A stretch of 64,000 nucleotides of DNA from positions 1-64,000 of IMG/VR virus record IMGVR_UViG_3300045988_004573. The stretch is one strand, 5' to 3'. This document shows positions 8,423-47,081 of this stretch, piece after piece. The stretch is from a virus. The notes below the pieces were generated by a model. It did no database searches, was not told the DNA's origin, and saw nothing but the letters and a program-made list of their open reading frames with translations. Both the position numbers and the translations under genes were made by a program. Positions within the stretch are counted from its first letter, which is position 1. Every line of letters starts with the position of its first letter.

Positions 8423-8440
8423 AGTCTTTAATTTAATTAG

Positions 8441-8513
8441 TTGCGGAGGAGGGACTCGAACCCTCAACCTCAAGGTTATGAGCCTTGCTAGCTACCATTG
8501 CTATCACTCCACG
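8441..8513 (-). tRNA. tRNA-Met(CAU), initiator-like
   Basis: minus-strand cloverleaf read by eye; anticodon loop CUCAUAA; C1xA72 mismatch as in bacterial initiators; T-loop GGTTCGAGTCC. Confidence 0.8.
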
Positions 8514-8519
8514 ATGTTG

Positions 8520-8591
8520 AGCAGATAGAGAGAATCGAACTCTCACCAAAAGATTGGAAATCTCTTATACTAACCTTTATACGATACCTGC
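8520..8591 (-). tRNA. tRNA-Gly(UCC)
   Basis: acceptor GCAGGTA/TATCTGC; anticodon loop UUUCCAA; T-loop TTCGATT. Confidence 0.85.
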
Positions 8592-8993
8592 TTGTTTATT
8601 CTTATAATGTAAGTCTCTATGGCAATTAGCACATAGGACTCTGCACTTTTTAATCTCCTCTTCAAGCTTTCTTGGGGACTCTATCAATTTAACAACCTCT
8701 TTTTCCTTCTCATCAGGATTAACATGATGAAAATCTAAGCACCAAGGTCTGCTTTCCCCACATATCTCACATTTCAAAGTACTTTTATACTCCTCAAACT
8801 CTGCTGTCTTCTTCTTTTTATATTCAGCAGCTTTTGTTTTGTAGTACTCTTTATGTTCCTGATAATGCTTATCTCTGTATATCTTTCTACAAGACTTGCA
8901 ATCTGAGGCATGACCATCCTTTCTTAGTTTATTTATTGCAAACTCAGAGATTGGTTTTAGCTCTCCACATTTACTGCACTTCTTCATTTCCAT
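8577..8993 (-). CDS. HNH homing endonuclease (free-standing, inside tRNA array)
   Basis: 138 aa; Cys-rich N-terminus; LDFHHVNPDEKE ... CANCHRDLH HNH core; 3' end overlaps tRNA-Gly by 15 nt. Confidence 0.8.
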   Translation of the reverse strand: MEMKKCSKCGELKPISEFAINKLRKDGHASDCKSCRKIYRDKHYQEHKEYYKTKAAEYKKKKTAEFEEYKSTLKCEICGESRPWCLDFHHVNPDEKEKEVVKLIESPRKLEEEIKKCRVLCANCHRDLHYKNKQAGIV

Positions 8994-8995
8994 TG

Positions 8996-9068
8996 AGTAG
9001 ATAATCAGATTTGAACTGACCCCTTGACATTGGCAATGTCATATGCTAACCCCTAACACCATATCTAC
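8996..9068 (-). tRNA. tRNA-Gly(GCC)
   Basis: acceptor GTAGATA/TATCTAC; anticodon loop UUGCCAA. Confidence 0.85.
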
Positions 9069-9254
9069 ATAAGCCAAAGATTTGCTATTGGTACTTTGGC
9101 ATTGCAAGTGTCAGCTTAACTTGCACCCTCAATCATCTACACCTCATAAAAGCTTTTTAACTGAATGCCGCAGGTCAGCTCCTGCTGAGGTTTACCTAGT
9201 AGCATTGAGTGTTACTCTCTCACTGTAGGTAAGACAGCTTTTAGTAACTTGTTG

Positions 9255-9328
9255 AGCCTCCTCTCAGAATCGAACTGAGACTTCCTGTTTACAAGGCAGG
9301 CTTGCTAAACCATTAACACTAAGGAGGC
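9255..9328 (-). tRNA. tRNA-Thr(UGU)
   Basis: acceptor GCCTCCT/AGGAGGC; anticodon loop CUUGUAA. Confidence 0.85.
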
Positions 9329-9332
9329 ATAG

Positions 9333-9414
9333 TACCCCTGACAGGATTTGAACCTGCAATCCTCAAGGGCGTTGGTGTTTAAGACCAATGTGTATTCCAT
9401 TCCACCACAGGGGC
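9333..9414 (-). tRNA. tRNA-Leu(UAA)
   Basis: acceptor GCCCCTG/CAGGGGT; anticodon loop CUUAAAC; long variable arm. Confidence 0.85.
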
Positions 9415-9421
9415 ATTATAC

Positions 9422-9874
9422 TTAGTAAGGTCTCAAATCACATAACTCAAATAGGTACTTATATTTCAGTATATTATGTATGAATGTCTCACACTCAGAC
9501 CTAATACCTGCATATAGTGTTCCCTCTGGGATATTCTCATAGAACTTAGTAGTTCCTGCTTTAACCTCATTGATGAAGTCCATAGCATTGAGAGCATCAC
9601 TAGGAGTACCCTTAATCACATTAGGTTGCATATGTCCAAGCAATCCCTGATACTCCTCTGCCAACCCATCCTGATAGTCTGATATAACATCTAGGAACTC
9701 ATCTAGGTAGACATGGATATTCTTCTTAGGAGCTGCCCAATGCAGGTTCTTACACTTAGTCTTCCAACCCTCCAGAAGGTTAATGAAGCTAATGAAGAAC
9801 TGACTAGGGTTCTCATCTTGAGAAGTCTTGAACATCTCATCCATTAGCTGATTATCTAGAAAAACACTATCCAT
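9422..9874 (-). CDS. hypothetical protein, weak Dps/ferritin-like helix pattern
   Basis: 150 aa; KNLHWAAPKKNIHVYLDEF...DGLAEEYQGLLG resembles the Dps helix A/B pattern; by eye only. Confidence 0.45.
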   Translation of the reverse strand: MDSVFLDNQLMDEMFKTSQDENPSQFFISFINLLEGWKTKCKNLHWAAPKKNIHVYLDEFLDVISDYQDGLAEEYQGLLGHMQPNVIKGTPSDALNAMDFINEVKAGTTKFYENIPEGTLYAGIRSECETFIHNILKYKYLFELCDLRPY

Positions 9875-9899
9875 TCCTCTTACTCTTGATTTGATACTG

Positions 9900-9907
9900 C
9901 AAAGTTA
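9900..9907 (-). promoter_or_regulatory. Bacteroidetes-type -7 box TAACTTTG
   Basis: plus CAAAGTTA within CTGCAAAGTTAAGCAAAAT, ~25 nt upstream of the 9874 start. Confidence 0.5.
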
Positions 9908-9960
9908 AGCAAAATATTTAACCTGTGCAAGTAAATTACATTATTTAACTAAAATATCTG

Positions 9961-10043
9961 TACTCTCTAAGGGACTCGAACCCTTACACCTCTCGGCACT
10001 AGAGCCTAAATCTAGCGTGTCTACCAAATTCCACCAAGAGAGC
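9961..10043 (-). tRNA. tRNA-Leu(UAG)
   Basis: acceptor GCTCTCT/AGAGAGT; anticodon loop UUUAGGC; long variable arm. Confidence 0.85.
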
Positions 10044-10051
10044 ATAAGCTC

Positions 10052-10651
10052 TTATAGAGAGCTATATTCTTTTGTAGCATCAAAACTAGGGCAAGCCTTA
10101 TTAGCAAAGTCCCTATGACCATGTATAGATGCTTGAGGGTACTTAGTCTTTAACTCCTTAAGTAACTTAACTAATGACTGCTTCTGCTCAGTAGTCCTAG
10201 TATCTTTAGGTGTCTTACCATCAGAAGCACATCCTCCTATATAGCATACTCCAATAGAGTTAGTATTATGACCAGTGCAGTGCGCACCTATAATAGACTC
10301 ATCTCTACCTATATGTATAGAACCATCTCTATATATTACATAATGGTAGCCTATATCAGAGAAACCTCTTTGAAGATGCCATTGTCTTATAGTATCTACA
10401 CTATAGTCTTTACCTTCTGGTGTAGCACTGCAATGCACTATCAACTCCTTTATATTCCTCTTATTCACTGAGAGATTGAGCTTAGATAAAGTATTAGCTC
10501 CAACAATACCATCCACTTCAAGACCATTAGACCTCTGGAAGTCTTTGACAGCTTCCTCAGTCAGAGGACCAAATATCCCATCTGCCTTTAGGTTCAGCTT
10601 CTCTTGAAGAGCCTTTACCTCATTACCTCTACTACCTAGTTTCAGTACCAT
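10052..10651 (-). CDS. endolysin: PG-binding domain + N-acetylmuramoyl-L-alanine amidase
   Basis: N-terminal GSRGNEVKALQ..DGIFGP.T..AV..FQ (PG_binding_1-like); C-terminal HCSATPEG, GYHYVI, GAHCTGHN, SIGVCYIGG (amidase_2-like). Confidence 0.85.
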   Translation of the reverse strand: MVLKLGSRGNEVKALQEKLNLKADGIFGPLTEEAVKDFQRSNGLEVDGIVGANTLSKLNLSVNKRNIKELIVHCSATPEGKDYSVDTIRQWHLQRGFSDIGYHYVIYRDGSIHIGRDESIIGAHCTGHNTNSIGVCYIGGCASDGKTPKDTRTTEQKQSLVKLLKELKTKYPQASIHGHRDFANKACPSFDATKEYSSL

Positions 10652-10666
10652 ACCTTAATATATTAG

Positions 10667-10741
10667 TGGACATTCATAGAATCGAACTATGTTCTAGGGT
10701 TTTTCAGACCCTCGCAATGTAACCATACCTGCCCAATGTCC
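10667..10741 (-). tRNA. tRNA-Phe(GAA)
   Basis: acceptor GGACATT/AATGTCC; anticodon loop CUGAAAA. Confidence 0.85.
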
Positions 10742-10808
10742 ATATAGCTTATTCTAGTCTCTACCCTAGTCACCACTCATAAGCTAAGAGCAATCCTTTC
10801 TATTGAAG

Positions 10809-10889
10809 TGGGAAGTAAAGGAGTCGAACCTATTCAACCAGAGGTGTCAGATTTACAGTCTGAGGCTATCACCGTGTAGCACACTTCCC
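10809..10889 (-). tRNA. tRNA-Tyr(GUA)
   Basis: acceptor GGGAAGT/ACTTCCC; anticodon loop CUGUAAA; long variable arm. Confidence 0.85.
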
Positions 10890-11069
10890 ATAATTAGTTA
10901 TTATAGTTCCTCATTCAGCAAAAGGGTTATTCCTTGATAATAGGAATACACCCTGTAGGAGTCCAATAGTAACTAGTAGCACTTCTTTCTATATACCACT
11001 TTACTTCTCTTTTCACTAAATTAAGAACTCTTCTCATAACATATAAAATTTGAAGTTAAACATGTTATG

Positions 11070-11142
11070 TTCCCCCACTAGGAGTCGAACCTAGCTCTCA
11101 GGATTAAAAGTCCAGAGCATCCACCATCAATGCTTTGAGGGA
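11070..11142 (-). tRNA. tRNA-Lys(UUU)
   Basis: acceptor TCCCTCA/TGGGGGA; anticodon loop CUUUUAA. Confidence 0.85.
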
Positions 11143-11211
11143 GTGAAGCAGGGTCTTTTATAGAGGTTTCATCTTATTCCTAGGAAAGATTTTACCCTGC
11201 ATACCCTCTAG

Positions 11212-11285
11212 TGCCTCCACAAGGACTTGAACCTTGAGTCCCCTGTTTAAGAGACAGGTGCTTTAACCAATTCAGCTATAGAGGC
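11212..11285 (-). tRNA. tRNA-Lys(CUU)
   Basis: acceptor GCCTCTA/TGGAGGC; anticodon loop CUCUUAA. Confidence 0.85.
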
Positions 11286-11293
11286 TTATATAG

Positions 11294-11368
11294 ACTTGGA
11301 GGTGGGATTTGAACCCACGAATCACCAGTTTTGCAGACTGTGCCCTTAAACCACTCAGGTACTCCAAG
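11294..11368 (-). tRNA. tRNA-Cys(GCA)
   Basis: acceptor CTTGGAG/CTCCAAG; anticodon loop CUGCAAA; slightly irregular variable region. Confidence 0.7.
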
Positions 11369-11369
11369 A

Positions 11370-11774
11370 TTATATCTTAATCAATCCCGCATGAATCTCT
11401 CTATGGCAATTGGCGCAAACCAATATACACTTATCTATTTCTGGTTTGAGAGATTCAAATGACTTAGTCCCTCCACTAATAGTAAAGTCTTTCTCTTGTG
11501 GGTTCAAATGATGAAACTCAAGAGCATTCATACATTTGTTATATCCACATATCTGACATCTACCACCCTTGTACTCTATAAGCCTCTGTTTTACAATACT
11601 TCTATACCTTGAAGTATCTCTTACAGGCTTTATTTGTCTATTAGGTCTTTTCTTAAAAACTATAAACTTTTTTAGAGCTTCATAGGATATATGAAGAGTT
11701 TTCGCTACAACTTTTATATTACCTACTTTGTCATATAGCTTCTGAGCTTCTACTTTTCTATCTTCACTTATCAT
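11370..11774 (-). CDS. HNH homing endonuclease with N-terminal HTH (start trimmed to MISEDRK...)
   Basis: CQICGY..., LEFHHLNPQEKD, CANCHREIH; the first 42 codons of track ORF 11370..11900 overlap two tRNA genes, so the ATG at 11774 is preferred. Confidence 0.8.
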   Translation of the reverse strand: MISEDRKVEAQKLYDKVGNIKVVAKTLHISYEALKKFIVFKKRPNRQIKPVRDTSRYRSIVKQRLIEYKGGRCQICGYNKCMNALEFHHLNPQEKDFTISGGTKSFESLKPEIDKCILVCANCHREIHAGLIKI

Positions 11775-11776
11775 AG

Positions 11777-11853
11777 TACTGGCAGAGGGGATTGAACCCA
11801 CATGCAACCTATTACCCTTTCTACTGTGTATAAGACAGAGGGGATATGCCAGT
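11777..11853 (-). tRNA. atypical tRNA-like gene (no recognisable D-arm; anticodon-like loop CUUAUAC = UAU)
   Basis: perfect 7-bp acceptor ACTGGCA/TGCCAGT and T-arm GTGGG-TTCAATC-CCCTC; the interior folds as one long bulged arm capped by CUUAUAC. Confidence 0.4.
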
Positions 11854-11860
11854 ATATTGG

Positions 11861-11935
11861 GGTGTCTGATGGGACTTGAACCCACACTACTTGGAGCCAC
11901 AATCCAAGGCTCTAGACCAATTAAGCTACAGACAC
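11861..11935 (-). tRNA. tRNA-His(GUG)
   Basis: acceptor GTGTCTG/CAGACAC; discriminator C; anticodon loop UUGUGGC. Confidence 0.85.
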
Positions 11936-11937
11936 AG

Positions 11938-12009
11938 TTCTGATGAGTGGACTCGAACCACTAGCTACTGCCTTATGAGAGCAGCTTTCTACCATTGAAA
12001 TACATCAGA
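11938..12009 (-). tRNA. tRNA-Met or Ile2 (CAU), elongator-type
   Basis: acceptor TCTGATG/CATCAGA; anticodon loop CUCAUAA. Confidence 0.8.
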
Positions 12010-12015
12010 ATATAG

Positions 12016-12087
12016 TTGGCATACATGGAATTGAACCATGATTACTACCTTATCAGAGTAGCTTCCTAACCATTAGAAGATATGCCA
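12016..12087 (-). tRNA. tRNA-Ile(GAU)
   Basis: acceptor TGGCATA/TATGCCA; anticodon loop CUGAUAA. Confidence 0.85.
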
Positions 12088-12096
12088 ATACTCTTG

Positions 12097-12167
12097 CATA
12101 CTCTTAAAGACTCGAACTCTAACCAATGGTTTTGGAGACCATTATGCTACCATTACACCAAGAGTAC
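12097..12167 (-). tRNA. tRNA-Trp(CCA)
   Basis: acceptor GTACTCT/AGAGTAT; anticodon loop CUCCAAA. Confidence 0.85.
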
Positions 12168-12176
12168 ATTCTATTG

Positions 12177-12248
12177 CGGGACCTGTAAGACTCGAACTTA
12201 CATCTGAGGGTTAACAGCCCACTGTTCTGACCTTTGAACTAAAGACCC
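12177..12248 (-). tRNA. tRNA-Asn(GUU)
   Basis: acceptor GGGTCTT/AGGTCCC (one mismatch); anticodon loop CUGUUAA. Confidence 0.8.
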
Positions 12249-12256
12249 AATAATTG

Positions 12257-12330
12257 TTGCTCCTGTAGGAATTGAACCTACGACCTTTTCCTTGTAAGGG
12301 AACTATTCTTAACCACTGAACTAAGGAGCA
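12257..12330 (-). tRNA. tRNA-Val(UAC)
   Basis: acceptor TGCTCCT/AGGAGCA; anticodon loop CUUACAA. Confidence 0.85.
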
Positions 12331-12423
12331 ATGTAGGCTCTCACTGTGGAGAGCCTTTCTACACTAAGAAAAGTGTAGGTGTCCTAACAAACGCTCTAAC
12401 ACTATGAAACACGGAAACTAATG

Positions 12424-12497
12424 TGGAGAATGAGGGACTTGAACCCTGAACTCCTCCTTGCAAGGGAGGTGTGTTAGCCAATTACACCACAAACCCC
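12424..12497 (-). tRNA. tRNA-Ala(UGC)
   Basis: anticodon arm CCTCC-CUUGCAA-GGAGG; G3-U70 pair present; two U-U mismatches in the acceptor stem. Confidence 0.75.
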
Positions 12498-12502
12498 ATT
12501 AG

Positions 12503-12575
12503 TAGAGTAGACAAGACTCGAACTTGCAATATCTGCATCCCAAATGCAGGAGGTTAACCATTACCCAACTACTCT
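12503..12575 (-). tRNA. tRNA-Pro(UGG)
   Basis: acceptor AGAGTAG/CTACTCT; anticodon loop UUUGGGA. Confidence 0.85.
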
Positions 12576-12581
12576 ATATAG

Positions 12582-12668
12582 CGGAGAGCTATGTACTCGA
12601 AACATATACCCATTATAGGTACAATCTGCTTAGCAGGCAGTCCCTAGAACCCTCTAGGTTAACTCTCC
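12582..12668 (-). tRNA. tRNA-Ser(GCU)
   Basis: acceptor GGAGAGT/GCTCTCC; anticodon loop CUGCUAA; long variable arm; unusual U53-A61. Confidence 0.8.
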
Positions 12669-12856
12669 TTCTTCACATACAAGCTACAATGACACTCATC
12701 ATTCTCTCTATAATCTGAGCAAGGACAATGCTTATCAGTACCTGTATTATGACATGGACACTCACCACCATTTAACTCTACTCTCTTCAAGATAGCATTA
12801 ACCACCTTATCATTAGGGTTAAGCATCCAGCTTTCTTTCCTTAATATCTGTATCAT
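12659..12856 (-). CDS. ferredoxin-thioredoxin-reductase catalytic-chain-like mini-protein
   Basis: 65 aa with CPC-x8-CPC-x8-CHC cysteine pattern (FTR beta-chain-like); embedded between two tRNA-Ser genes. Confidence 0.55.
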   Translation of the reverse strand: MIQILRKESWMLNPNDKVVNAILKRVELNGGECPCHNTGTDKHCPCSDYRENDECHCSLYVKKES

Positions 12857-12858
12857 AG

Positions 12859-12950
12859 AGGAGGATGTCAGACTCGAACTGACACACCACTGTTACATGA
12901 TTACTAGTAGTTTTCAAGACTACTGCCTTACCAATTAGGCTTAATCCTCC
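12859..12950 (-). tRNA. tRNA-Ser(UGA)
   Basis: acceptor GGAGGAT/ATCCTCC; anticodon arm GTAGT-CUUGAAA-ACTAC; long variable arm. Confidence 0.85.
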
Positions 12951-13002
12951 ATTTGCCTACCTACCGCTGTAGGATAGGACTTTGGTTCTGTTATAAGTGT
13001 GC

Positions 13003-13073
13003 AGACTATGAGGGAATTGAACCCTAACCTTCACATTGACAGTGTGATATGCAAACCATTACACTACATAGCC
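13003..13073 (-). tRNA. tRNA-Asp(GUC)
   Basis: acceptor GGCTATG/CATAGTC; anticodon loop CUGUCAA; ends +/-1 nt. Confidence 0.8.
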
Positions 13074-13080
13074 TATATAG

Positions 13081-13152
13081 TAGAGTCACTGGGAATTGAA
13101 CCCAGATTTCTGCCTTGAGAGGGCAGTTGCCTAACCTTTAGTAGATGACTCC
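13081..13152 (-). tRNA. tRNA-Glu(CUC)
   Basis: acceptor GGAGTCA/TGACTCT; anticodon loop CUCUCAA. Confidence 0.8.
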
Positions 13153-13158
13153 ATTTAG

Positions 13159-13230
13159 TAGGGAAGTAAGGACTTGAACCTTATCCTCAGCCTTGAAAGA
13201 GCTACGACCTAACCTATAGTCTACATCCCC
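13159..13230 (-). tRNA. tRNA-Glu(UUC)
   Basis: acceptor GGGGATG/CTTCCCT (one mismatch); anticodon loop CUUUCAA. Confidence 0.8.
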
Positions 13231-13239
13231 ATCTCTTAG

Positions 13240-13311
13240 TACCCCCTGAGGGAATCGAACCCCCATTAAAGGCTTAGAAGACCCTTGCATTATCCATTAT
13301 ACTAAGAGGGC
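13240..13311 (-). tRNA. tRNA-Arg(UCU)
   Basis: acceptor GCCCTCT/AGGGGGT; anticodon loop CUUCUAA. Confidence 0.85.
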
Positions 13312-13319
13312 ATTCCTAG

Positions 13320-13391
13320 TTGGGACTAGAGGACTCGAACCTCTGCTATAAGAGCCAAAATCTCATGTGACTACCACTACACCAAGTCCCA
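13320..13391 (-). tRNA. tRNA-Gln(UUG)
   Basis: acceptor TGGGACT/AGTCCCA; anticodon loop UUUUGGC. Confidence 0.85.
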
Positions 13392-17599: not shown

Positions 17600-17767
17600 G
17601 TAAATCATTTATACTATTATATAGATGGAAATTCTTGTAATAACAGAGAAGAGAATCTTCAACTGTTATGCCCTAATTGTCATTCTCTTACAGAGAATTT
17701 TGGTAGTAGGAACAAGAATGCTAATAGTGGTAGAAGTATATACTATGGAAGAGCTAGGGCTGATTAG
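17600..17767 (+). pseudogene. HNH endonuclease remnant (C-terminal core only, no start codon)
   Basis: frame reads VNHLYYYIDGNSCNNREENLQLLCPNCHSLTENFG...; opens right after a stop, has no Met, and ends inside tRNA-Arg. Confidence 0.55.
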
Positions 17768-17831
17768 CTCAACTGCACAGAGCGGGGGTTTCCTAAACCT
17801 CAGGTTGGGAGTTGGAGTCTCCCATCAGCCA
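17758..17831 (+). tRNA. tRNA-Arg(CCU) nested inside the interrupted tRNA
   Basis: acceptor GGCTGAT/ATCAGCC; D-stem GCTC/GAGC; anticodon loop UUCCUAA; T-arm GGGAG-TTGGAGT-CTCCC; D-loop lacks GG and the T-loop has G56 (atypical elbow). Confidence 0.65.
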
Positions 17832-18018
17832 CATTTTGCTTAGAGTAGATACTGGTTCGAGTCCAGTTGGAGGTACAATGTCTATTTAACCACTATTTCC
17901 TGACTCTGCTGGGCAAAATGACTGAAAATGTGGTGCTAATGGGTAAGCCATAGTTTCTTGTTTTAGCTTGTACTTTGTTCTTAGAAAAGAAGCAAAGCAA
18001 TTGGGGAATCACATTTGG

Positions 18019-18102
18019 GAATGTATAGCTTAATGGTAAAGCAGCGTGGTACCACTTCAAAACAATGAGAGCAAGATGTAGGTTCAACTCCTACTGCATT
18101 CC
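18019..18102 (+). ncRNA. aberrant 84-nt tRNA-like RNA
   Basis: acceptor GAATGTA/TGCATTC (extendable to 8-9 bp); D-arm GCTT-AATGGTA-AAGC; T-arm GTAGG-TTCAACT-CCTAC; the 34-nt central part does not form a standard anticodon arm and carries GCAG...ACTTCAA as in the insertion family. Confidence 0.5.
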
Positions 18103-18183
18103 TATCTCAATAGTAGTTAAAATGCACAGCCAGCATTGTATCTATGTATCTAACTGGTCATAGTATATGCTGGCACTACTCAT

Positions 18184-18586
18184 GGGGCTGTTTGGTTTTG
18201 ACTGGTGGCTACTGGGTATGAGGACATGCAGAGACTGATGGAGAGACATCAAAACTTTAGGTGGCAACAGAATTTCTGCACCTGTAGCTCTTGCTGCTTA
18301 AGCAATCTACTGAGTTGGTCACTGACTTGGAAACAGAATAGTGACAAAACAAATAAGGTCAAGAAGGAAGTATAATAAGGCTATACCTACTTTCAGTGCT
18401 TAATGGCTGTGATGCACACAGAGGGTGTGACCTTTCAGATTTCTTGCATAGATGAATGCAAGTGGTGGATGATGTTGACAATCCAGTCAACCCCAGCAGA
18501 GAACCAACTGCATAATAAAGTGGTAAGCATGTGTAATCCTTATATTGAGGGCTATTAGGACAGGGGTTCGACTCCCCTCAGCTCCA
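18184..18586 (+). ncRNA. ssrA: tmRNA
   Basis: 5' GGGGCTGTTTGGTTTTGAC; 3' GGACAGGGGTTCGACTCCCCTCAGCTCCA; acceptor with G3-U70; internal tag frame ...GGC AAC AGA ATT TCT GCA CCT GTA GCT CTT GCT GCT TAA (..NRISAPVALAA stop, 18263-18301). Confidence 0.85.
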
Positions 18587-18617
18587 CAATTAACATCAAC
18601 AATTAAATTACATTAGA

Positions 18618-19240: not shown

Positions 19241-19385
19241 ATTATGTATTTCAAAGAGGATGAACCAACAGGAGGGCTTATAACAATACCTCTTCCTGAC
19301 CCTACTTATCAGGGTGGTTATTGGTATTAGAGTTAAATTTATGTTAAAGGTAGGTCATTTGTTTGGTAGTATCAAACTTTTGATT

Positions 19386-19393
19386 TACCTTTG
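19386..19393 (+). promoter_or_regulatory. Bacteroidetes-type -7 box TACCTTTG upstream of the Ro60-like gene
   Basis: GATTTACCTTTGCAAAG with TTTG elements about 20-30 nt upstream; 34 nt before the 19428 start. Confidence 0.55.
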
Positions 19394-19427
19394 CAAAGTC
19401 AAACAAGATTAATTTAATTTTAGTGGT

Positions 19428-20840
19428 ATGTGTTCTAAATTAAATCCAAGATTAAAGCCTGCACCTAAGTTTGAGGGCACTCAACTGGCAGGTGGTTATG
19501 GTGCTTTGGCTGCTAGACAATCCAATGTAGCATTGCTTAGAAGAGCAGTGCTGGCTAATCTCCTTTGGGAAGATGTAGCATACATGGATGGAATTTCAGT
19601 AGCCAGTGAGATTAAGAGGTTAATACCTCTGTGCCCTGCTGAGGATGTATATAACATAGCTCTTGAAGCTAGGTTAATGCAGAAGCTGAGACATACTCCA
19701 TTGTTCATAGCAGTGGAAATGTGCAAGTACCCTGAACATAAGTTATTTGTTAAGGACTTGTTACCTAAGATAATCACAAGAGCTGATATGCTCACTGACT
19801 TCTTGGCTATATATTGGAAGGACAAGAAATGCCCTATCTGTAATCAAGCTAAGAAAGGTCTGGCTTTAGCCTTCCACAACTTCAATGAGTATAAGTTGGC
19901 TAAGTATGACAGAGATGCTGCTATCAAGCTCAGAGATGTGATGTTCTTAGTACATACTAAGCCTAGAAACCAATATGAGCAGGAGTTGTTCAATAAGGTA
20001 GCTGAGAGAACTCTTACACCTCCTGAGACATGGGAAGTCATGTTATCTAGAGGTGAGGATAAGAAAGCTACTTGGACTAAGCTCATTACAGAAGGTAAGA
20101 TAGGAGGATTAGCTATGTTGAGGAATATAGCTAATATGCAGAAAGCTAATGTGGATAGAAAGACTATTCAAGATGGTCTTAAAACACTAAGAAGCTCAAT
20201 GCTATTACCTCTTGACTTCTGGAAGGCTGCTAGGATGAACTCAGTATTTGAGAGAGACATTGAGGATGCTATGATTGAGGCATATAAGAACTTACCTAAA
20301 CTTCCTGGTAAGACACTGTTTATAGTGGATGTATCAGGTTCTATGGGTTCTTTAACCTCTGGTAGTTCTCAGTTCAATAGAATGGACCAAGCCTGTGCTA
20401 TGGCTATCTTGGCAGCTAATCAGTGCGAGGACTATGAGCTTGTAGCTACAGCAGGTAATGATGGTTCTAGAAAGAATGCCTCAGAGTGGATTGAATATCC
20501 TAAGAGAGGTTTTGCTCTTGCTCCACAGATAATGGAGACCAGACATAGGATTGGTGGCGGAGGTATATTCACCAGACAATGCCTAGAGTGGTGTAAGGAT
20601 AAGTTCAAAGACAAGAAGTTTGATAGAATTATCATATTCTCAGACTCTCAAGACTGTGACTATCCTGAGAAGAGAGTGCCTAAACCTTTTGGTACTTACA
20701 ACTATATTTGTGATGTGTCAGCACACACAAAAGGTGTAAACTACAGAGGTACATGGACTGCTGAGATAAGTGGTTTCTCGGAGCATTTCATTACATTCAT
20801 TGCAGCAATGGAAGGTGTTCAGAATACCTTTGAAGAATAA
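19428..20840 (+). CDS. rsr: Ro60 ortholog (TROVE domain + vWA/MIDAS)
   Basis: 470 aa; TROVE-like LLWEDVAYMDG, EARLMQKLRHTPLFIAVEM, KYDRDAAIKLRDVMFLVHTKP, LAMLRNIANM; vWA MIDAS FIVDVSGSMGS, GGGG-I-F-T, IIIFSDSQD. These align by eye with recalled human Ro60 motifs ([45 protein letters not shown]). Confidence 0.85.
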   Translation: MCSKLNPRLKPAPKFEGTQLAGGYGALAARQSNVALLRRAVLANLLWEDVAYMDGISVASEIKRLIPLCPAEDVYNIALEARLMQKLRHTPLFIAVEMCKYPEHKLFVKDLLPKIITRADMLTDFLAIYWKDKKCPICNQAKKGLALAFHNFNEYKLAKYDRDAAIKLRDVMFLVHTKPRNQYEQELFNKVAERTLTPPETWEVMLSRGEDKKATWTKLITEGKIGGLAMLRNIANMQKANVDRKTIQDGLKTLRSSMLLPLDFWKAARMNSVFERDIEDAMIEAYKNLPKLPGKTLFIVDVSGSMGSLTSGSSQFNRMDQACAMAILAANQCEDYELVATAGNDGSRKNASEWIEYPKRGFALAPQIMETRHRIGGGGIFTRQCLEWCKDKFKDKKFDRIIIFSDSQDCDYPEKRVPKPFGTYNYICDVSAHTKGVNYRGTWTAEISGFSEHFITFIAAMEGVQNTFEE

Positions 20841-20843
20841 AAC

Positions 20844-20987
20844 AAAGAGTACTGTGTAGTGTTTTGTCAGACTTACTTCATTAACTAAGTGGTATAGTGC
20901 AAAACTTTTAATTTTGATGTCACAGGTTCGAGTCCTGTATGAGATTGGGGAAACCCAAGTCTGACATCTGTTCTCCAGTACTCTTTT
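20844..20987 (+). ncRNA. Y-RNA-like element: tRNA-like cloverleaf enclosed by two long terminal helices
   Basis: starts 4 nt after the rsr stop; 11-bp perfect stem 20844-20854/20976-20986 then TTTT; 8-bp stem 20865-20872/20959-20966; inside: D-arm ACTA-AGTGGTA-TAGT, arm CAAAA-CUUUUAA-TTTTG, T-arm ACAGG-TTCGAGT-CCTGT, plus a GAAA-capped hairpin. Confidence 0.6.
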
Positions 20988-20994
20988 CAATATG

Positions 20995-21125
20995 GAGGAG
21001 TTAGCTCAGTTGGTTAGAGCACTTAATGTTACTCTGTCAAATGTTCCATAGTAATATTGGTGGCAGATAGAGTTACTTCGGAATTGCTAATTCAGTGGTC
21101 ATAGGTTCAAATCCTATACTCCTCC
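20995..21125 (+). tRNA. tRNA gene with ~57-nt insertion after position 26 (anticodon-like loop UUGCUAA)
   Basis: acceptor GAGGAGT/ACTCCTC; canonical D-arm GCTC-AGTTGGTTA-GAGC; T-arm ATAGG-TTCAAAT-CCTAT; insertion ends in AGAGTTACTTC. Confidence 0.6.
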
Positions 21126-21190
21126 CTTACTTTGTTGGATTTTGTGTGTTCTACCTCACTGGTATGTGAATATAGGTGAGGTTTCTACAA

Positions 21191-21328
21191 GGCGGAGTAG
21201 CTAAATGGTAAAGCAACACCCTTACAGGATTTCTCTGGTAAAGCAGTAGTGAGTTGTCAGGGTTACTTCAAGGTTATAGCATTAGTTTTGGGTACTAAAG
21301 TATGTAAGTTCGAGTCTTACCTCCGCCA
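21191..21328 (+). tRNA. tRNA-Pro(UGG)-like gene with ~64-nt insertion between D-arm and anticodon stem
   Basis: acceptor GGCGGAG/CTCCGCC; D-arm GCTA-AATGGTA-AAGC; intact arm TTAGT-UUUGGGU-ACTAA; T-arm GTAAG-TTCGAGT-CTTAC; insertion carries GCAGTAGTGAGTTGTCAGGGTTACTTCAAG. Confidence 0.65.
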
Positions 21329-21532
21329 CTTATTACCTACCTCACCTAGCGTAGTTGTACAGAGTGAGACCTAATAGGAGGCATCAAAGGAACTATCCTA
21401 GTCACACTGGTGTGCTGTTCAGTGAGTGAGAAAATGAGCAGCCCCGAAGCATAGTGGGGATAATGTCAAGGAGTACCATCCTTAAGCAGCTATGTAAAAC
21501 TGGTTGACAATCTGGAAAGACAGATAATAAAT

Positions 21533-21660
21533 GGGGGAGTAGCTAAATTGGTTACAATACTCTAGCTGTTATTCTCTGGAAGCAGTAGTGTTAGCAAAGA
21601 GTTACTTCAAGCATTCATCTGATAAATGAAAGTATATTGGTTCGAGTCCAATCTCCCCCA
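21533..21660 (+). tRNA. tRNA-Ile(GAU)-like gene with ~53-nt insertion in the D-loop region
   Basis: acceptor GGGGGAG/CTCCCCC; intact arm TTCAT-CUGAUAA-ATGAA; T-arm ATTGG-TTCGAGT-CCAAT; insertion carries GCAGTAGTGTTAGCAAAGAGTTACTTCAAG. Confidence 0.65.
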
Positions 21661-21882
21661 CAAGATAGAGGTTAGTGAATGTTACAGTTACTTCATATTA
21701 TGACTAGTATATTTATTTAACATTCAATCAAGAAAGGAGTAGATTTATTTACAACTTTTCAATTCAACCAACTGTGGCAGAGTTGTTCTACCTCTATTAA
21801 GAGGGCTGTGGTAGCAATACTATAGTCCTCTTTCTTTTTGATAACTGTGTTAGCTACATATATTGTATTACTAAAAAAAAGT

Positions 21883-44736: not shown

Positions 44737-46857
44737 TGGATGAGTGGTTTGAAGAAGGAAAGCATGAAGCTATCAAGTACTATGGTGAGCAGATATACTA
44801 TGTGTCTGGAGTTGCAAACTTATTTAGTGATGCAGAGATAGGATGTCCTTATAAGAATATATCAGTAAGGGAATCACTGGAGCTTCTCAGTACACTAAAG
44901 GTTGTAGGATTGGATAGTGAGACTAGAGGTACAGAGATATGGCAAGGTCAGCTGCTGTTACTTCAATTAGGTAACAAGCACTTTCAAGTAGTCATTGACT
45001 GTACCACTGTAGATGTCAAGCTATACAAGGAGTTCCTTGAGAGTGATAGGCTTTTCATAATTCATAATGCCAAGTTTGACCTAAGATGGTTATATAAGGA
45101 GGGTATTGTAATCAGAAATGTATTTGATACTTTCCTTGCAGAGAAGATACTGTTCCTGGGATTTCCACCAGGAATAGTGTCACTCAGCTTGCAGGCTTGT
45201 TGTGACAGGTATCTTAATGTCTACCTTGACAAGACAGTCAGAGGTAAGATTAACTATGGTGTCACTGATGAGGTAATAATCTATTCAGCCAATGATGTTG
45301 TGTTCCTTGAAGATGTCATGGAAGCACAGTTAAAGCAGATAGAGGCTAGAGGTCAGAGAGTCGCCTTAGAGATAGAGAACAGGTTTGTGAGAGTATTGGC
45401 TTATATTGAGTTCTGTGGTATAAGGCTTGACATTGAAAGGTGGAAAGCCAAGATGGTTAAGGATGCTGAAAGGCTGAGAGTAGCAGAGCAGAAACTCAAT
45501 GATTGGGTTGTAGAGTATGTGATGTCCAAAGGAGACACAGATGCTATAGCCTATGATGTTCAGACTAAGAGAGGAAAGGTAAAGAGAGCTAAGGGTACTA
45601 TAGGTAAGTATGTAGCTATAGACCCACAGCAGAACCTCTTTGAGGAGAACAAGCCAAGATGTATCATCAACTGGAACAGTAACAAGCAGGTTATACCATT
45701 GTTTGAGGAGTTAGGGTTCAATGTATGGGCTAAAGACAAGAAGACTGGAAAGATGAAGAAGTCAGTAGACTCAAAGCTGCTTAAACAGCAGTTGGATAAG
45801 AGTCCTCTGGCTAAGTTATATCTTGATTACTCTGGTGAGTTCAAGGTAGTTACTTCATTTGGTCAGAACTTCTTGGATGCAGTCAATCCTGTTACAGGGA
45901 GAATACACCCTACATTCAATCAGATGATGGACACTGGCAGGTTGAGTTGTGGTAAAGGAGGAAAGAAAGGTGGAGGTAAGACTAAGGATGATGACTTTGC
46001 TGAGGAAGAGCAGACTGAGCAGGATGCTGATGTTATCATAGCAGTAGATAAGAGTGTGAATGTTCAGCAGTTGCCATCTGATGCAGAGACTAGAGCTTGC
46101 TTCATACCTGATAAAGACCACATGCTAGTTGATTGTGATTATGGAGACCAAGAAGGTCATGTCTTTACTGAGTTAAGTCAGGATAAGGCATGGATTGATT
46201 TCTATAATGACCCCAATGAGAGAGATGGTCACTCCTTTGTAGCCAAGATGATATTCTCTGATGAGCTAAAGGATATACCAGAGAAGGAAGTAAAGAAGAA
46301 GAGGAAAGACTTGAGGGATGCTGCAAAGCCAGCAAGGTTTACCTTTAATTATAATGGGACAGCCAATGCCTTAGCAGCTAACACAGGTAAGTCTCTTGAG
46401 TTCTGTGAGTTGTGCTTTAAGAAGTACTTCTCAGCATTCAAAGGTATAGCCAGCTACTTTAGAGTGAGTAAGGCTAATATGTGGAAAAGAGGTTATATCC
46501 TAATCTCAAAGTACACTGGACTGAGGGCTTACATCTATGACTATCCTATACTGAAAGGCATAGAGAGAAGAATCAAGAGAATGGGTCAGGAGTTCTGGGA
46601 TTCCTATAGGAAAGCCAGAGACTCTGGTCAAGTCATTGATGATGTCCCTGCTGTGGTTCTTCAACAGATGGCAAGGAAGTTTGCCAATGGAGAACCTATG
46701 GAGGCTATTGCTATAAGGTATGAGTATAAGGTCAAGAAGGGTAAGAAGATTGAGACAAAGTATATTGATATTAACAGGGAAACTGTATTGATTAAACTCT
46801 GGAAGCATCTGGCAAAGAGAAGGTCATCATCTGAGAACCAGTCCTGTAACTATCCCT
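44736..46857 (+). CDS. family A DNA polymerase, exon 1
   Basis: Exo I GLDSET, Exo II IHNAKFDLRWL, Exo III YSANDV; pol motif A VDCDYGDQE; motif B RDAAKPARFTFNYNG; the reading frame leaves the PolA consensus after ..NQSCNYP. Confidence 0.85.
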
Positions 46858-47081
46858 TAATTGTGGGGGCATATAGTGGTGACATTATATGAAAACTCAG
46901 TGAATTGCTGGAAGGCTAAGGAGAAATCTATGCTAATCAGCAGCCAAGACTTGTAGAAATGCAAGTAAGGTTCAGAGACTAATCAAAGTAAGCTAAGGAG
47001 AAATCTATGCTGAAATGGGCAAGAGTGCTGAGTATCTCTTAATTATTTATTTACCCTATTGGATAATTAAGAAATAATTTG

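What the first reader, a model, noticed from the sequence alone, without database searches (positions are those of the whole stretch)
19386..20987. Ro60 (TROVE-vWA) gene with its own promoter, followed 4 nt later by a Y-RNA-like tRNA mimic
**Seen**
- The 470-aa ORF has TROVE hallmarks (..KLRDVMFLVHTKP, LAMLRNIANM) and a vWA MIDAS motif (DVSGSMGS).
- Directly after its stop lies a 144-nt element.
- Its ends form a perfect 11-bp helix (20844-54/20976-86, then TTTT) and an 8-bp helix (20865-72/20959-66), separated by an internal loop.
- These helices enclose a complete cloverleaf with canonical D-loop (AGUGGUA) and T-loop (GGUUCGAGUCC), and a loop CUUUUAA.
- The acceptor end is therefore not free.

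**Established knowledge**
- Bacterial and some phage Ro60 orthologs are encoded next to Y RNAs.
- One Y RNA class (YrlA) combines a Ro60-binding terminal stem with a tRNA-like domain that lacks a free CCA end.

**Inference**
- This is the phage's Ro60 ligand.
- The cloverleaf duplicates the intact tRNA-Lys(UUU) in the leftward array, so it is free to have a non-decoding role.
Basis: partly seen in the sequence, partly recalled or inferred. Interest (0 to 1): 0.85.

Follow-up and report, generated by a model that had tools for sequence, protein, structure and literature searches.

The report
Phage Ro60 operon with Y RNAs
A crAss-like gut phage carries a Ro60 (TROVE) gene followed by five small structured RNAs that share one Y-RNA-type stem, the flagged one wrapping a complete tRNA cloverleaf; this is a new variant of the known Ro60/Y-RNA partnership in a very abundant group of human gut viruses.

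Summary
ORF 19428-20840 is a full-length Ro60 homologue: Pfam TROVE, a sequence match to the Thermus phage phiLo Ro60 structure, and a predicted structure whose 13 best PDB matches are all Ro60. Four nt after its stop lies a 143-nt element (20844-20986). An 11-bp and a 10-bp helix enclose a complete tRNA cloverleaf. All five share one module: helix P1, an internal loop (UAGUG opposite UGUUCU), helix P2, then UUACUUCA. Both helices covary across about 50 related phages. A motif search that ignored TROVE found the same module beside distant TROVE genes in other phages and in bacteria of at least six phyla. There it is the stem of RNAs with canonical YrlA topology. So the stems are Y-RNA stems. 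E1 itself is not a YrlA member. It scores below the Rfam threshold, lacks GNCGAA, and its tRNA part is not permuted. E2 is an un-permuted YrlA. E3 and E4 are tRNA bodies with the module inserted. Ro60 binding and expression are inferred, not shown. Verdict: real, a new variant of a known kind, moderately interesting.

The parts
19362..19393 (+). Bacteroides-type promoter match: -33 TTTG (19362-19365), 20-nt spacer, -7 TACCTTTG (19386-19393)
   Evidence: Pattern TTTG-N18-22-TAnnTTTG. It occurs only twice on the + strand of the window and is conserved upstream of the TROVE gene in 13 of 18 relatives. The consensus itself is from my own knowledge of Bacteroides promoters.
19428..20840 (+). Ro60 homologue (TROVE + vWA, MIDAS DVSGS), 470 aa
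   Evidence: Pfam TROVE 42.6 bits against a cut-off of 23. phmmer to Thermus phage phiLo Ro60 (9KOP/9L5Y) gives E 1.1e-10 over residues 111-461. The AF2 model has pLDDT 79.8, and its 13 best Foldseek PDB hits are all Ro60. It is 79% identical to crAss001 gp96.
20844..20986 (+). E1 is an open Y-type stem module that encloses a complete tRNA cloverleaf. P1 is 20844-54/20976-86. UAGUG is at 20857-61. P2 is 20865-74/20957-66. UUACUUCA is at 20873-80. The cloverleaf is 20875-20946. The hairpin GGGGAAACCC is at 20947-56. UGUUCU is at 20969-74.
20994..21126 (+). E2 is a tRNA-like body with free acceptor ends (GGAGGAG/CUCCUCC), D arm and T arm. The anticodon loop is replaced by the closed module: P2' 21031-38, AAAUGUUCC 21039-47, GGUG 21059-62, P2 21066-73, UUACUUCGG 21073-81. 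This is an un-permuted YrlA design.
   Evidence: Rfam tRNA 47.5 bits with a 70-nt insertion. RNAalifold on 13 relatives shows compensatory changes in 12 of 28 pairs. Fold z -2.77.
21191..21328 (+). E3 is a tRNA-Pro(UGG)-like body. The closed module (UAGUG 21247-51, UUACUUCAA 21263-71) is inserted between the D arm and the anticodon arm.
21533..21660 (+). E4 is a tRNA-Ile(GAU)-like body. The closed module (UAGUG 21586-90, UUACUUCAA 21602-10) is inserted before the anticodon arm.
   Evidence: P2 covaries in L048.
21664..21798 (+). E5 is an open module with a non-tRNA insert of about 100 nt. P1 is 21664-72/21790-98. UAGUG is at 21673-77. UUACUUCA is at 21688-95. GUUCU is at 21785-89.
   Evidence: It is conserved as the last element in all relatives.
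21799..21840 (+). Intrinsic-terminator-like hairpin plus T run that closes the operon
   Evidence: 15-pair stem followed by TCTTTTTGAT. It is conserved in relatives.

Best explanation
The region 19362-21840 is a Ro60/Y-RNA operon of a crAss-like (Steigviridae) Bacteroides phage.

Proposed mechanism (inferred steps are marked):
- A host-type promoter drives one transcript. It carries the Ro60 mRNA and five non-coding RNAs and ends at a terminator.
- Each RNA carries the same Y-RNA-type stem module. The module is helix P1, a bulged U with an AG:CU pair, an internal loop (UAGUG on one side, UGUUCU on the other), helix P2, and then single-stranded UUACUUCA.
- I infer that this module is the docking site for the phage Ro60 ring. 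The attached, mostly tRNA-shaped domains would then act as adaptors or gates that link Ro60 to tRNA-binding host or phage factors early in infection.

The flagged element:
- E1 is the version in which the module encloses a whole, non-permuted cloverleaf through its acceptor end.

Shown:
- The protein family.
- The RNA structures and their covariation.
- Homology of the stem with YrlA-type RNAs next to Ro60 genes elsewhere.

Inferred:
- Transcription as one unit and processing of the transcript.
- Binding of the module to Ro60.
- The downstream function.
For: The protein is Ro60:
- Pfam, sequence and structure evidence agree.

The motif is confined to this locus:
- The two-block motif TAGTG-N10/11-TTACTTC occurs 4 times, against 0.09 expected, and all four lie in 20857-21694 on the + strand. 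E2 carries a fifth, variant copy.
- In the first 100 kb of the 102.7-kb crAss001 genome, the strict motif occurs only at four sites downstream of gp96 TROVE.

The helices covary:
- There are 85 unique open modules with 18 different P1 sequences. P1 positions 1-5 are paired in 85/85 and position 6 in 84/85, with 3-6 base combinations at each position.
- Pairing drops from 0.97 to 0.49 when partners are shuffled.
- Cognate helices are 6-10 bp long. Non-cognate pairings average 1.3 and 2.4 bp.
- The E2 family shows compensatory changes in 12 of 28 pairs, with G.U pairs and no A.C pairs. This points to an RNA read from the + strand.

The link to Ro60 is independent of the TROVE search:
- A motif scan of IMG/VR that ignored TROVE found the module next to TROVE genes only 34-45% identical to this one. 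In three of these four loci (L151, L105, L058) it encloses the canonical T arm, acceptor-like hairpin and D arm of YrlA.
- Rfam YrlA scores elements at these loci 28-38 bits with full-length alignments. In L151 the hit overlaps the module-bearing element. In L058 the hit is a neighbouring element.
- A scan of bacterial genomes gave 27 loci in at least six phyla. Fourteen have a TROVE gene within the 8 kb of DNA held. For the 11 of these whose full module I checked, the gene is downstream on the same strand.
- At L173, L178, L184 and L189 Rfam YrlA hits of 32-45 bits coincide with those elements; L177's stronger hits (47 and 39 bits) lie upstream of its module.

Context:
- crAss001 TROVE is among the earliest genes expressed (PMC8375218).
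- Y RNAs lie within 4 kb of Ro60 on the same strand in more than 250 bacteria and 22 phages (PMC4201824).
Against: - There are no expression, end-mapping or binding data for any of the five RNAs.
- The literal GNCGAAN0-1G motif, thought to contact Ro60, is absent from 20841-21845.
- Rfam YrlA does not reach its gathering score here or in any relative.
- E1's cloverleaf is nearly a perfect tRNA, so it could simply be released and used as a tRNA.
- Anticodon triplets change among close relatives. This could mean either decoding function under selection or no constraint at all.
- The MFE fold of E1 does not form the acceptor stem. The designed structure has -37.5 kcal/mol against -43.3 for the MFE.
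Confidence: 0.7

Rival explanations
1. E1 is an ordinary decoding tRNA-Lys(UUU) gene. The flanking helices would be only a precursor-processing or transcript-stabilising structure, and RNase P and 3' processing would release a working tRNA.
For: - Rfam tRNA scores 59 bits and ARAGORN calls tRNA-Lys.
- All universal tertiary positions are present by inspection: U8, A14, G18G19, U33, G53-C56, A58, C61 and the G15:C48 pair.
- The T stem and acceptor stem are kept by compensatory changes in L030.
- M. smegmatis YrlA is itself cut by RNase P and receives CCA (PMC4201824).
Against: - The flanks are not generic. They carry the conserved Y-type module shared with four other elements and with YrlA-type RNAs elsewhere.
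- The acceptor stem is AU-rich, with a C.A mismatch and a U.G pair, and the discriminator is U.
- No CCA is encoded.
- The anticodon switches between UUU and UCU on the same body.
- The phage already has tRNA-Lys(UUU) and tRNA-Arg(UCU) in its array.
- In most relatives the same position holds a module with only a small hairpin.
Confidence: 0.12
2. The repeated 24-nt motif TAGTG-N10/11-TTACTTCA is a DNA-level signal. It would be a promoter for the crAss virion RNA polymerase, repeated in front of each small RNA, rather than an RNA motif.
For: - It has two conserved blocks at a fixed spacing, about as long as a single-subunit phage polymerase promoter.
- All copies lie on one strand in the early region.
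- Early promoters of crAss-like phages are unknown. None was found in phi14:2 (bioRxiv 10.1101/2020.03.07.982082).
Against: - Sequence on both sides of the motif, including upstream of it, pairs with distant downstream or upstream partners. This pairing covaries heavily and includes G.U pairs.
- The opposite side of the internal loop (UGUUCU) is conserved as well.
- The motif is absent upstream of every protein-coding early gene in the window and in crAss001.
- The same motif occurs in bacteria and in non-crAss phages, where I have no evidence of a crAss-type polymerase, inside RNAs that score as YrlA.
Confidence: 0.05
3. The closed modules in E2-E4 are mobile or intron-like insertions in real tRNA genes, and the open ones are leftovers of such insertions. 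They would be removed or tolerated and would have no link to Ro60.
For: - E3 and E4 keep intact anticodon arms with canonical 7-nt loops.
- Cassettes are shuffled between phages whose Ro60 genes differ, and HNH endonuclease genes sit in this region in several relatives.
Against: - No known bacterial mechanism splices 40-70-nt non-group-I insertions at position 26 or in the anticodon loop, and Rfam finds no ribozyme or intron here.
- The module is found only next to TROVE within these genomes.
- It is linked to TROVE across phyla.
- E2 has no anticodon loop that could be restored.
Confidence: 0.08

Closest known systems
YrlA (Y RNA-like A; Rfam RF02553; Chen et al. 2014, PMC4201824; structure in Wang et al. 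2018, bioRxiv 10.1101/312249)
   Same: - It is encoded next to a Ro60 gene on the same strand.
- It has a long terminal stem with an internal loop, plus a tRNA-like domain with authentic D and T arms.
- The acceptor end is not free in the primary fold.
- The stem signature of E1-E5 (UAGUG / UUACUUC / UUCU) is the one found in bacterial and phage RNAs that have canonical YrlA topology, several of which score as YrlA.
   Different: - E1's tRNA part is a complete cloverleaf in the normal order, with an anticodon arm, and it joins the stem through its acceptor end. In YrlA the order is T arm, closed acceptor hairpin, D arm, and the Ro60 stem continues from the anticodon stem.
- There is no GNCGAAN0-1G motif.
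- The Rfam score is 21.4 against a gathering score of 69.
- E2, not E1, is the true topological counterpart. It is the same parts list circularly permuted, so that the acceptor ends are free.
M. smegmatis YrlA (PMC4201824)
   Same: It has a 7-bp acceptor-like stem that makes it an RNase P substrate and leads to CCA addition. E1 to E4 also have 7-bp acceptor stems.
   Different: It still has the permuted topology, and cleavage opens a closed loop. In E2-E4 the acceptor ends are already the ends of the unit.
Thermus phage phiLo Ro60 with Yrl1/Yrl2 (PMC12135203; PDB 9KOP, 9L5Y)
   Same: - It is a phage-encoded Ro60 with adjacent Y-like RNAs.
- Its protein is the closest solved relative of this ORF, by sequence (E 1.1e-10) and by fold (E 1.9e-14).
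   Different: - The phiLo Yrls lie upstream of the gene. They are described as stem-bulge-stem RNAs with a CGAA motif and without tRNA-like domains.
- Here there are five RNAs downstream, with a different motif and with tRNA bodies.
Deinococcus radiodurans Rsr / Yrn1 / PNPase complex (as summarised in PMC4201824)
   Same: It provides the working model: the Y RNA stem binds Ro60 and the other domain tethers an effector.
   Different: No effector is known here, and Yrn1 has a different arrangement of tRNA-like parts.

Membership tests
YrlA (RF02553) | Encoded within about 4 kb of a Ro60/TROVE gene, on the same strand | tested here: met
   E1 starts 4 nt after the TROVE stop on the + strand.
YrlA (RF02553) | Covariance-model score at or above the Rfam gathering score | tested here: not met
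   The score is 21.4 bits (E 0.4) against 69. The hit, 20896-21053, joins the T arm of E1 to the D arm of E2. As a control, the CcrColossus YrlA scores 42.3 bits, so the threshold is strict, but a true topology is still detectable.
YrlA (RF02553) | GNCGAAN0-1G motif near the 5' end | tested here: not met
   A regex search finds none in 20841-21845. UUACUUCA is present instead; it is UUACUUCG(A/G/C) in the bacterial relatives.
YrlA (RF02553) | Permuted tRNA-like domain: T arm, closed acceptor-like hairpin, D arm, with the Ro60 stem continuing from the anticodon stem | tested here: not met
   E1 has the order acceptor 5', D, anticodon arm, T, acceptor 3'. The canonical order is described in bioRxiv 10.1101/312249.
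YrlA (RF02553) | Terminal stem formed by the 5' and 3' ends, with an internal loop, kept by covariation | tested here: met
YrlA (RF02553) | Bound by Ro60 in vivo | not testable with these tools
   This needs immunoprecipitation or EMSA.
tRNA (RF00005) | Cloverleaf scoring above the gathering score, with conserved tertiary nucleotides | tested here: met
   59 bits against 29. ARAGORN calls Lys-UUU.
tRNA (RF00005) | Anticodon conserved among orthologues, as expected for a decoding role | tested here: not met
   UUU in five relatives and UCU in two (L028, L033), on the same body.
tRNA (RF00005) | Free acceptor end with CCA, and aminoacylation | not testable with these tools
   No CCA is encoded. 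The ends continue into P2 and a hairpin. Processing is unknown.
Ro60 / TROVE protein | TROVE domain above the Pfam cut-off | tested here: met
   42.6 bits against 23.
Ro60 / TROVE protein | C-terminal vWA domain with a MIDAS motif | tested here: inconclusive
   PF25045 scores 19.8 against 27.7 for this protein. DVSGS is present and aligns with the phiLo MIDAS motif. Relatives about 78-79% identical carry PF25045.
Ro60 / TROVE protein | Full-length fold like solved Ro60 structures | tested here: met
   The 13 best Foldseek hits are all Ro60, with E from 1.9e-14 to 3.1e-8 over about 490 columns. The next hit has E 5.7e-3. TM is only about 0.5, so ring geometry is not established.

The most novel reading that the evidence does not exclude
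crAss-like phages may have turned the Ro60/Y-RNA system into a panel of tRNA look-alikes displayed on one Ro60-docking stem.
- The panel includes un-permuted YrlAs with free acceptor ends, which could possibly be CCA-tailed or charged.
- It also includes scaffolds whose anticodon triplets change between near-identical relatives: UUU/UCU in E1, GAU/GGU/CAU/AUU in E4.
- Such a set could serve as decoys, sensors or repair platforms against host anticodon nucleases and other tRNA-targeting defences. It would act together with the phage's own tRNA array, tmRNA and polynucleotide kinase.
- E2 would also be a living intermediate that shows how YrlA arose from a tRNA.
Probability: 0.2. Interest if true: 0.85.

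Novelty: new variant of a known kind. Interest (0 to 1): 0.6.

Why it matters
- What the tRNA-like domain of bacterial Y RNAs does is still unknown.
- Here the same Ro60-associated stem is joined to tRNA bodies in four different topologies, in an operon whose crAss001 counterpart is expressed within the first 10 minutes of infection.
- crAss001 and its relatives grow on Bacteroides intestinalis in culture, so Ro60 pull-downs, RNA end-mapping and deletions are feasible.
- The result also gives a compact, searchable stem signature (UAGUG ... UUACUUC ... UUCU). It finds Y RNAs across phyla at scores where the Rfam model stays below its threshold.
- It assigns a role to about 1 kb of unannotated DNA in crAss001-like genomes.

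Tried and rejected
1. Rfam at gathering threshold found no Y RNA family in the window. At E up to 10 the only YrlA hit is a two-tRNA artefact. I therefore did not file E1 under RF02553.
2. The promoter reading of the repeated motif was rejected. The reasons are covariation of the flanks, conservation of the opposite loop strand, and presence of the motif inside bacterial YrlA-type RNAs.
3. The claim that the cloverleaf duplicates the array tRNA-Lys was tested by alignment. Only universal tRNA positions are shared.
4. RNAalifold on the seven E1 homologues confirmed P1 and P2 but mis-folded the AU-rich cloverleaf, and MAFFT misaligned L030. For the cloverleaf I relied on the tRNA covariance model and ARAGORN instead.
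5. The single-match hits of the IMG/VR motif scan are mostly chance: 92 loci have neither a full module nor a TROVE gene. Only loci with a full module or a TROVE gene were used.
6. The sigma-70 promoter scan found nothing in front of the ORF. The Bacteroides-type consensus did.
7. A resemblance I recalled between the motif and the human Y1 sequence was not pursued, because it rests on memory only.
8. The supplements of Chen et al. 2014 are not held. I could not check whether the UAGUG/UUACUUC signature is visible in their alignments.
9. The conserved 200-nt stretch 21331-21533 gave no Rfam hit and a weak fold signal (z -1.3).
Full report
**What the window is**

The Ro60-like ORF is 72-80% identical at the protein level to the 'TROVE domain-containing protein' of Bacteroides phage crAss001 (gp96), the PhiCrAssBcn phages, cr112_1 and cr106_1. 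These are Crassvirales, Steigviridae, Asinivirinae. IMG/VR holds closer relatives, up to 96% identical. The window therefore comes from an uncultured crAss-like gut phage. In crAss001 the roughly 900 nt after gp96 are unannotated.

**Checking the observation**

- ORF 19428-20840 (470 aa) contains the quoted peptides.
- 20844-54 pairs perfectly with 20976-86, and 20865-72 with 20959-66.
- Between the helices lies a cloverleaf at 20875-20946. Rfam tRNA scores it at 59 bits (gathering score 29), and ARAGORN calls it tRNA-Lys(UUU).
- A small hairpin, GGGGAAACCC, sits at 20947-56.
- The element folds better than all 200 shuffles (z -3.35).
- The full designed structure (stem, cloverleaf and hairpin) has -37.5 kcal/mol against an MFE of -43.3. 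One acceptor pair is a C.A mismatch.

**The protein**

- Pfam TROVE scores 42.6 bits (cut-off 23). The Ro60-type vWA model falls below its cut-off for this protein but is recorded for relatives about 78-79% identical.
- phmmer against PDB sequences finds only the Ro60 of Thermus phage phiLo (9KOP/9L5Y). The E-value is 1.1e-10 over residues 111-461, with the MIDAS motif DVSGSM aligned.
- An AlphaFold2 model has pLDDT 79.8. Its 13 best Foldseek PDB matches are all Ro60: phiLo, Xenopus, human and Deinococcus Rsr. E-values run from 1.9e-14 to 3.1e-8 over the full length, and the next hit has E 5.7e-3.
- It is a Ro60 homologue. Ring geometry was not established, because TM is only about 0.5.

**Promoter and terminator**

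- Together with TTTG at 19362-65 and a 20-nt spacer, this matches the Bacteroides promoter consensus TTTG / TAnnTTTG. The consensus is from my own knowledge.
- The pattern occurs twice on the + strand of the 64-kb window and is conserved in 13 of 18 relatives, although the spacer varies.
- The only intrinsic-terminator-like site downstream is at 21799-21832 plus a T run.
- I infer one transcription unit from about 19400 to 21840.

TTACTTC occurs five times on the + strand between 20873 and 21694. The two-block pattern TAGTG-N10/11-TTACTTC occurs 4 times in the window against 0.09 expected, and all four copies are here. A fifth copy, in E2, is a variant.

Reading the flanks in the window and in 49 related loci shows a common module:
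- helix P1;
- a bulged U followed by an AG:CU pair;
- an internal loop with UAGUGNNN on the 5' side and NNN(U/A)GUUCU on the 3' side;
- helix P2;
- single-stranded UUACUUCA.

The module comes in two forms.
- In the open form, P1 is made by the flanks and P2 encloses an insert.
  - E1 (20844-20986) has the cloverleaf as its insert.
  - E5 (21664-21798) has a non-tRNA insert of about 100 nt.
  - In crAss001 and most relatives the first two or three elements have only a hairpin of about 45 nt, which gives RNAs of about 90 nt.
- In the closed form, P1 is capped by a loop and P2 opens into a tRNA body that has free 7-bp acceptor ends.
  - E2 (20994-21126) has the module in place of the anticodon loop.
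  - E3 (21191-21328) is Pro-UGG-like, and E4 (21533-21660) is Ile-GAU-like. In both, the module is inserted between the D region and the anticodon arm.

**The module is an RNA structure under selection**

- I anchored alignment only on TAGTG and TTCT, with no register fitting. In 85 unique open modules with 18 different P1 sequences, P1 positions 1-5 are paired in 85/85 and position 6 in 84/85. Each position shows 3-6 base combinations.
- Shuffling partners lowers pairing from 0.97 to 0.49.
- In ten sequence-distinct families the cognate P1 and P2 helices are 6-10 bp long. Non-cognate combinations average 1.3 and 2.4 bp.
- In E1 the relative L030 changes P1 (CUG/CAG to CUAU/AUAG), P2, the T stem and the small hairpin in a compensatory way.
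- In the E2 family, RNAalifold finds compensatory changes in 12 of 28 pairs: the acceptor stem, P2, the P1 cap and the T stem. G.U pairs are present and A.C pairs are not, so the + strand is the folded strand.
- This rules out a purely DNA-level reading of the motif, such as a promoter for the virion polymerase.
- The motif is also absent in front of every protein-coding gene in the window, and in the first 100 kb of the crAss001 genome it occurs only downstream of gp96.

**Is it a Y RNA? Direct family test**

- Rfam YrlA (RF02553) reaches only 21.4 bits (E 0.4, gathering score 69). The hit, 20896-21053, runs from the T arm of E1 to the D arm of E2. This is the 'dimeric tRNA' false positive that Chen et al. 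warn about (PMC4201824).
- As a control, the known YrlA-bearing phage CcrColossus gives 42.3 bits (E 2.9e-07) with the proper topology.
- The literal GNCGAAN0-1G motif is absent.
- Canonical YrlA has the order anticodon-stem strand, T arm, closed acceptor hairpin, D arm, anticodon-stem strand, with the Ro60 stem at the anticodon end (bioRxiv 10.1101/312249). E1 has the normal tRNA order and joins the stem at the acceptor end.
- So E1 is not a YrlA by its defining features.

**Is it a Y RNA? Evidence from elsewhere**

- I scanned IMG/VR for TAGTG-N6/7-A-NNN-TTACTTCAA without any reference to TROVE. Most single hits are chance. Four hits, however, lie beside TROVE genes only 34-45% identical to this one (L105, L151, L058, L145).
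  - In L151, L105 and L058 the same P1, UAGUG, P2, UUACUUC ... GUUCU, P1' stem encloses a canonical T arm, acceptor hairpin and D arm, just upstream of the gene.
  - Rfam YrlA aligns full-length at these loci at 28-38 bits. In L151 the hit overlaps the module-bearing element. In L058 the hit is a neighbouring element.
- A scan of 185,579 bacterial and archaeal genomes for the motif followed by GGTTCGA gave 27 loci. They come from Firmicutes, Bacteroidetes, Gammaproteobacteria, Verrucomicrobia, Chloroflexi and candidate phyla.
  - Sixteen loci have the full module.
  - Fourteen have a TROVE gene inside the 8 kb held. For the 11 of these with a full module, the gene is downstream on the same strand.
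  - At L173, L178, L184 and L189, Rfam YrlA hits of 32-45 bits coincide with those elements.
- TROVE genes are rare: 63 of 50,697 phage records hold one. This association cannot be chance.
- The stem of E1-E5 is therefore the stem of a widespread, Ro60-linked, YrlA-type RNA lineage. In bacteria the motif reads UUACUUCG(A/G/C). Its CGA core recalls GGUCCGA and GNCGAA, but that equivalence is only a suggestion.

**How the five elements relate to YrlA**

- E2 has exactly the YrlA parts list in un-permuted order: acceptor 5' strand, D arm, stem strand, P2', UUCC, cap, GGUG, P2, UUACUUCGG, stem strand, T arm, acceptor 3' strand. It is a tRNA whose anticodon loop is replaced by the Y stem-loop, with free acceptor ends.
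- E3 and E4 in addition keep an anticodon arm.
- E1 hangs a whole tRNA on the stem by its acceptor end.
- E5, and the short open forms in relatives, are Y RNAs without a tRNA part, like YrlB.
- Cassettes are shuffled. The window's Ro60 is 96% identical to that of L004. Its E1, however, is shared with phages whose Ro60 is only 78% identical (L028, L030, L031, L033-L035).

**Is E1 a working tRNA?**

- It keeps all universal tertiary positions.
- Against a decoding role:
  - its stems are AU-rich (33% GC);
  - it has a C.A mismatch;
  - its discriminator is U;
  - it has no encoded CCA;
  - it shares only universal positions with the array's tRNA-Lys(UUU).
- Its anticodon is UUU in five relatives and UCU in two, on the same body.
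- E4-type scaffolds likewise carry GAU, GGU, CAU or AUU.
- I rate 'ordinary decoding tRNA' at about 0.12. Partial processing by RNase P, as in M. smegmatis YrlA (PMC4201824), remains possible.

**Mechanism and confidence**

The structures, the covariation, the Ro60 identity and the homology of the stems are shown. The following steps are inferred:
- Early transcription from the host-type promoter. The TROVE gene of crAss001 is in the earliest class (PMC8375218).
- Processing of the transcript into five RNAs.
- Docking of Ro60 on the conserved stem.
- Use of the tRNA-shaped domains to recruit or gate partners. This follows the analogy with Deinococcus Rsr/Yrn1/PNPase and with phiLo Ro60/Yrl/PNPase (PMC4201824, PMC12135203).

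My confidence that these are Ro60-associated Y-type RNAs is 0.7.

**Novelty**

- Ro60 with adjacent Y RNAs is known in bacteria and in 22 phages (PMC4201824), and the crAss001 TROVE gene is annotated.
- I found no report of Y RNAs in crAss-like phages in the searchable literature.
- I also found no report of un-permuted or tRNA-enclosing forms there.
- I call it a new variant of a known kind.

Noticed in passing
window 17758-18589: A second RNA cluster lies upstream of the Ro60 gene. It holds tRNA-Arg(CCU) at 17758-17832, a tRNA-like gene with a 25-nt insertion at 18019-18102 (Rfam tRNA 47.4 bits; the insert contains CCACUUCAAAAC), and a tmRNA at 18184-18589 (Rfam 90.3 bits). ARAGORN did not call the tmRNA in the window, although it calls tmRNAs in relatives.
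   Followed up: partly
window 21331-21533: A non-coding stretch of about 200 nt between E3 and E4 is conserved in L004, L005 and L171. It has no Rfam match and only a weak fold signal (z -1.3). It contains the only CGAA in the cluster, in GCCCCGAAGCAUAGUGGGG.
   Followed up: partly
window 21143-21182: A hairpin, ACCUCACUGGUAUGUGAAUAUAGGUGAGGU, is preceded by GUGUUCU. It is conserved in front of E3-type elements in L004, L005 and L007. It looks like a half-module: the UUCU side and the P1 cap, without UAGUG/UUACUUCA.
   Followed up: no
E4 family (window 21617-21623; L005, L007, L042, L048), E1 family (window 20905-20911; L028, L033), E3 family: Anticodon triplets differ between otherwise near-identical scaffolds: GAU/GGU/CAU/AUU in E4 and UUU/UCU in E1. 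U33 and the loop size are mostly kept. This could reflect relaxed constraint or diversifying selection.
   Followed up: partly
L002, L008, L015, L019, L036, L038 (just after the TROVE stop); L004 4352-4450: An HNH endonuclease gene is inserted between the Ro60 gene and the RNA cluster in several relatives. L004 seems to keep only a remnant of that gene, fused to the 3' half of a module. RNA cassettes are exchanged between phages with divergent Ro60 genes.
   Followed up: partly
L085, L135, L118 (IMG/VR contigs): Full modules occur in unrelated phage contigs, near tRNA genes, with no TROVE gene in the DNA held. In L085 the module has the canonical T arm, acceptor hairpin and D arm. Either the gene lies further away or the RNA can exist without a phage-encoded Ro60.
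   Followed up: no
window 13438 and 14217 (- strand), 52519 (+ strand): These are the only other matches to the Bacteroides-type promoter pattern TTTG-N18-22-TAnnTTTG. The two on the minus strand lie just upstream of the leftward 25-tRNA array (8440-13391).
   Followed up: no
window 46848-47081: Rfam matches a group I intron here (65.3 bits, gathering score 50).
   Followed up: no
L179 (MAG labelled 'Bacilli bacterium'): A crAss-like Ro60 gene, 71% identical to the window's, sits in a contig binned as Bacilli. This is probably a binning artefact.
   Followed up: no
crAss001 MH675552 69478-70349: crAss001 encodes a polynucleotide kinase/phosphatase and a polynucleotide kinase (gp60, gp61). These are RNA-repair-type enzymes and could be relevant to a tRNA-damage reading of the Ro60 operon.
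   Followed up: no
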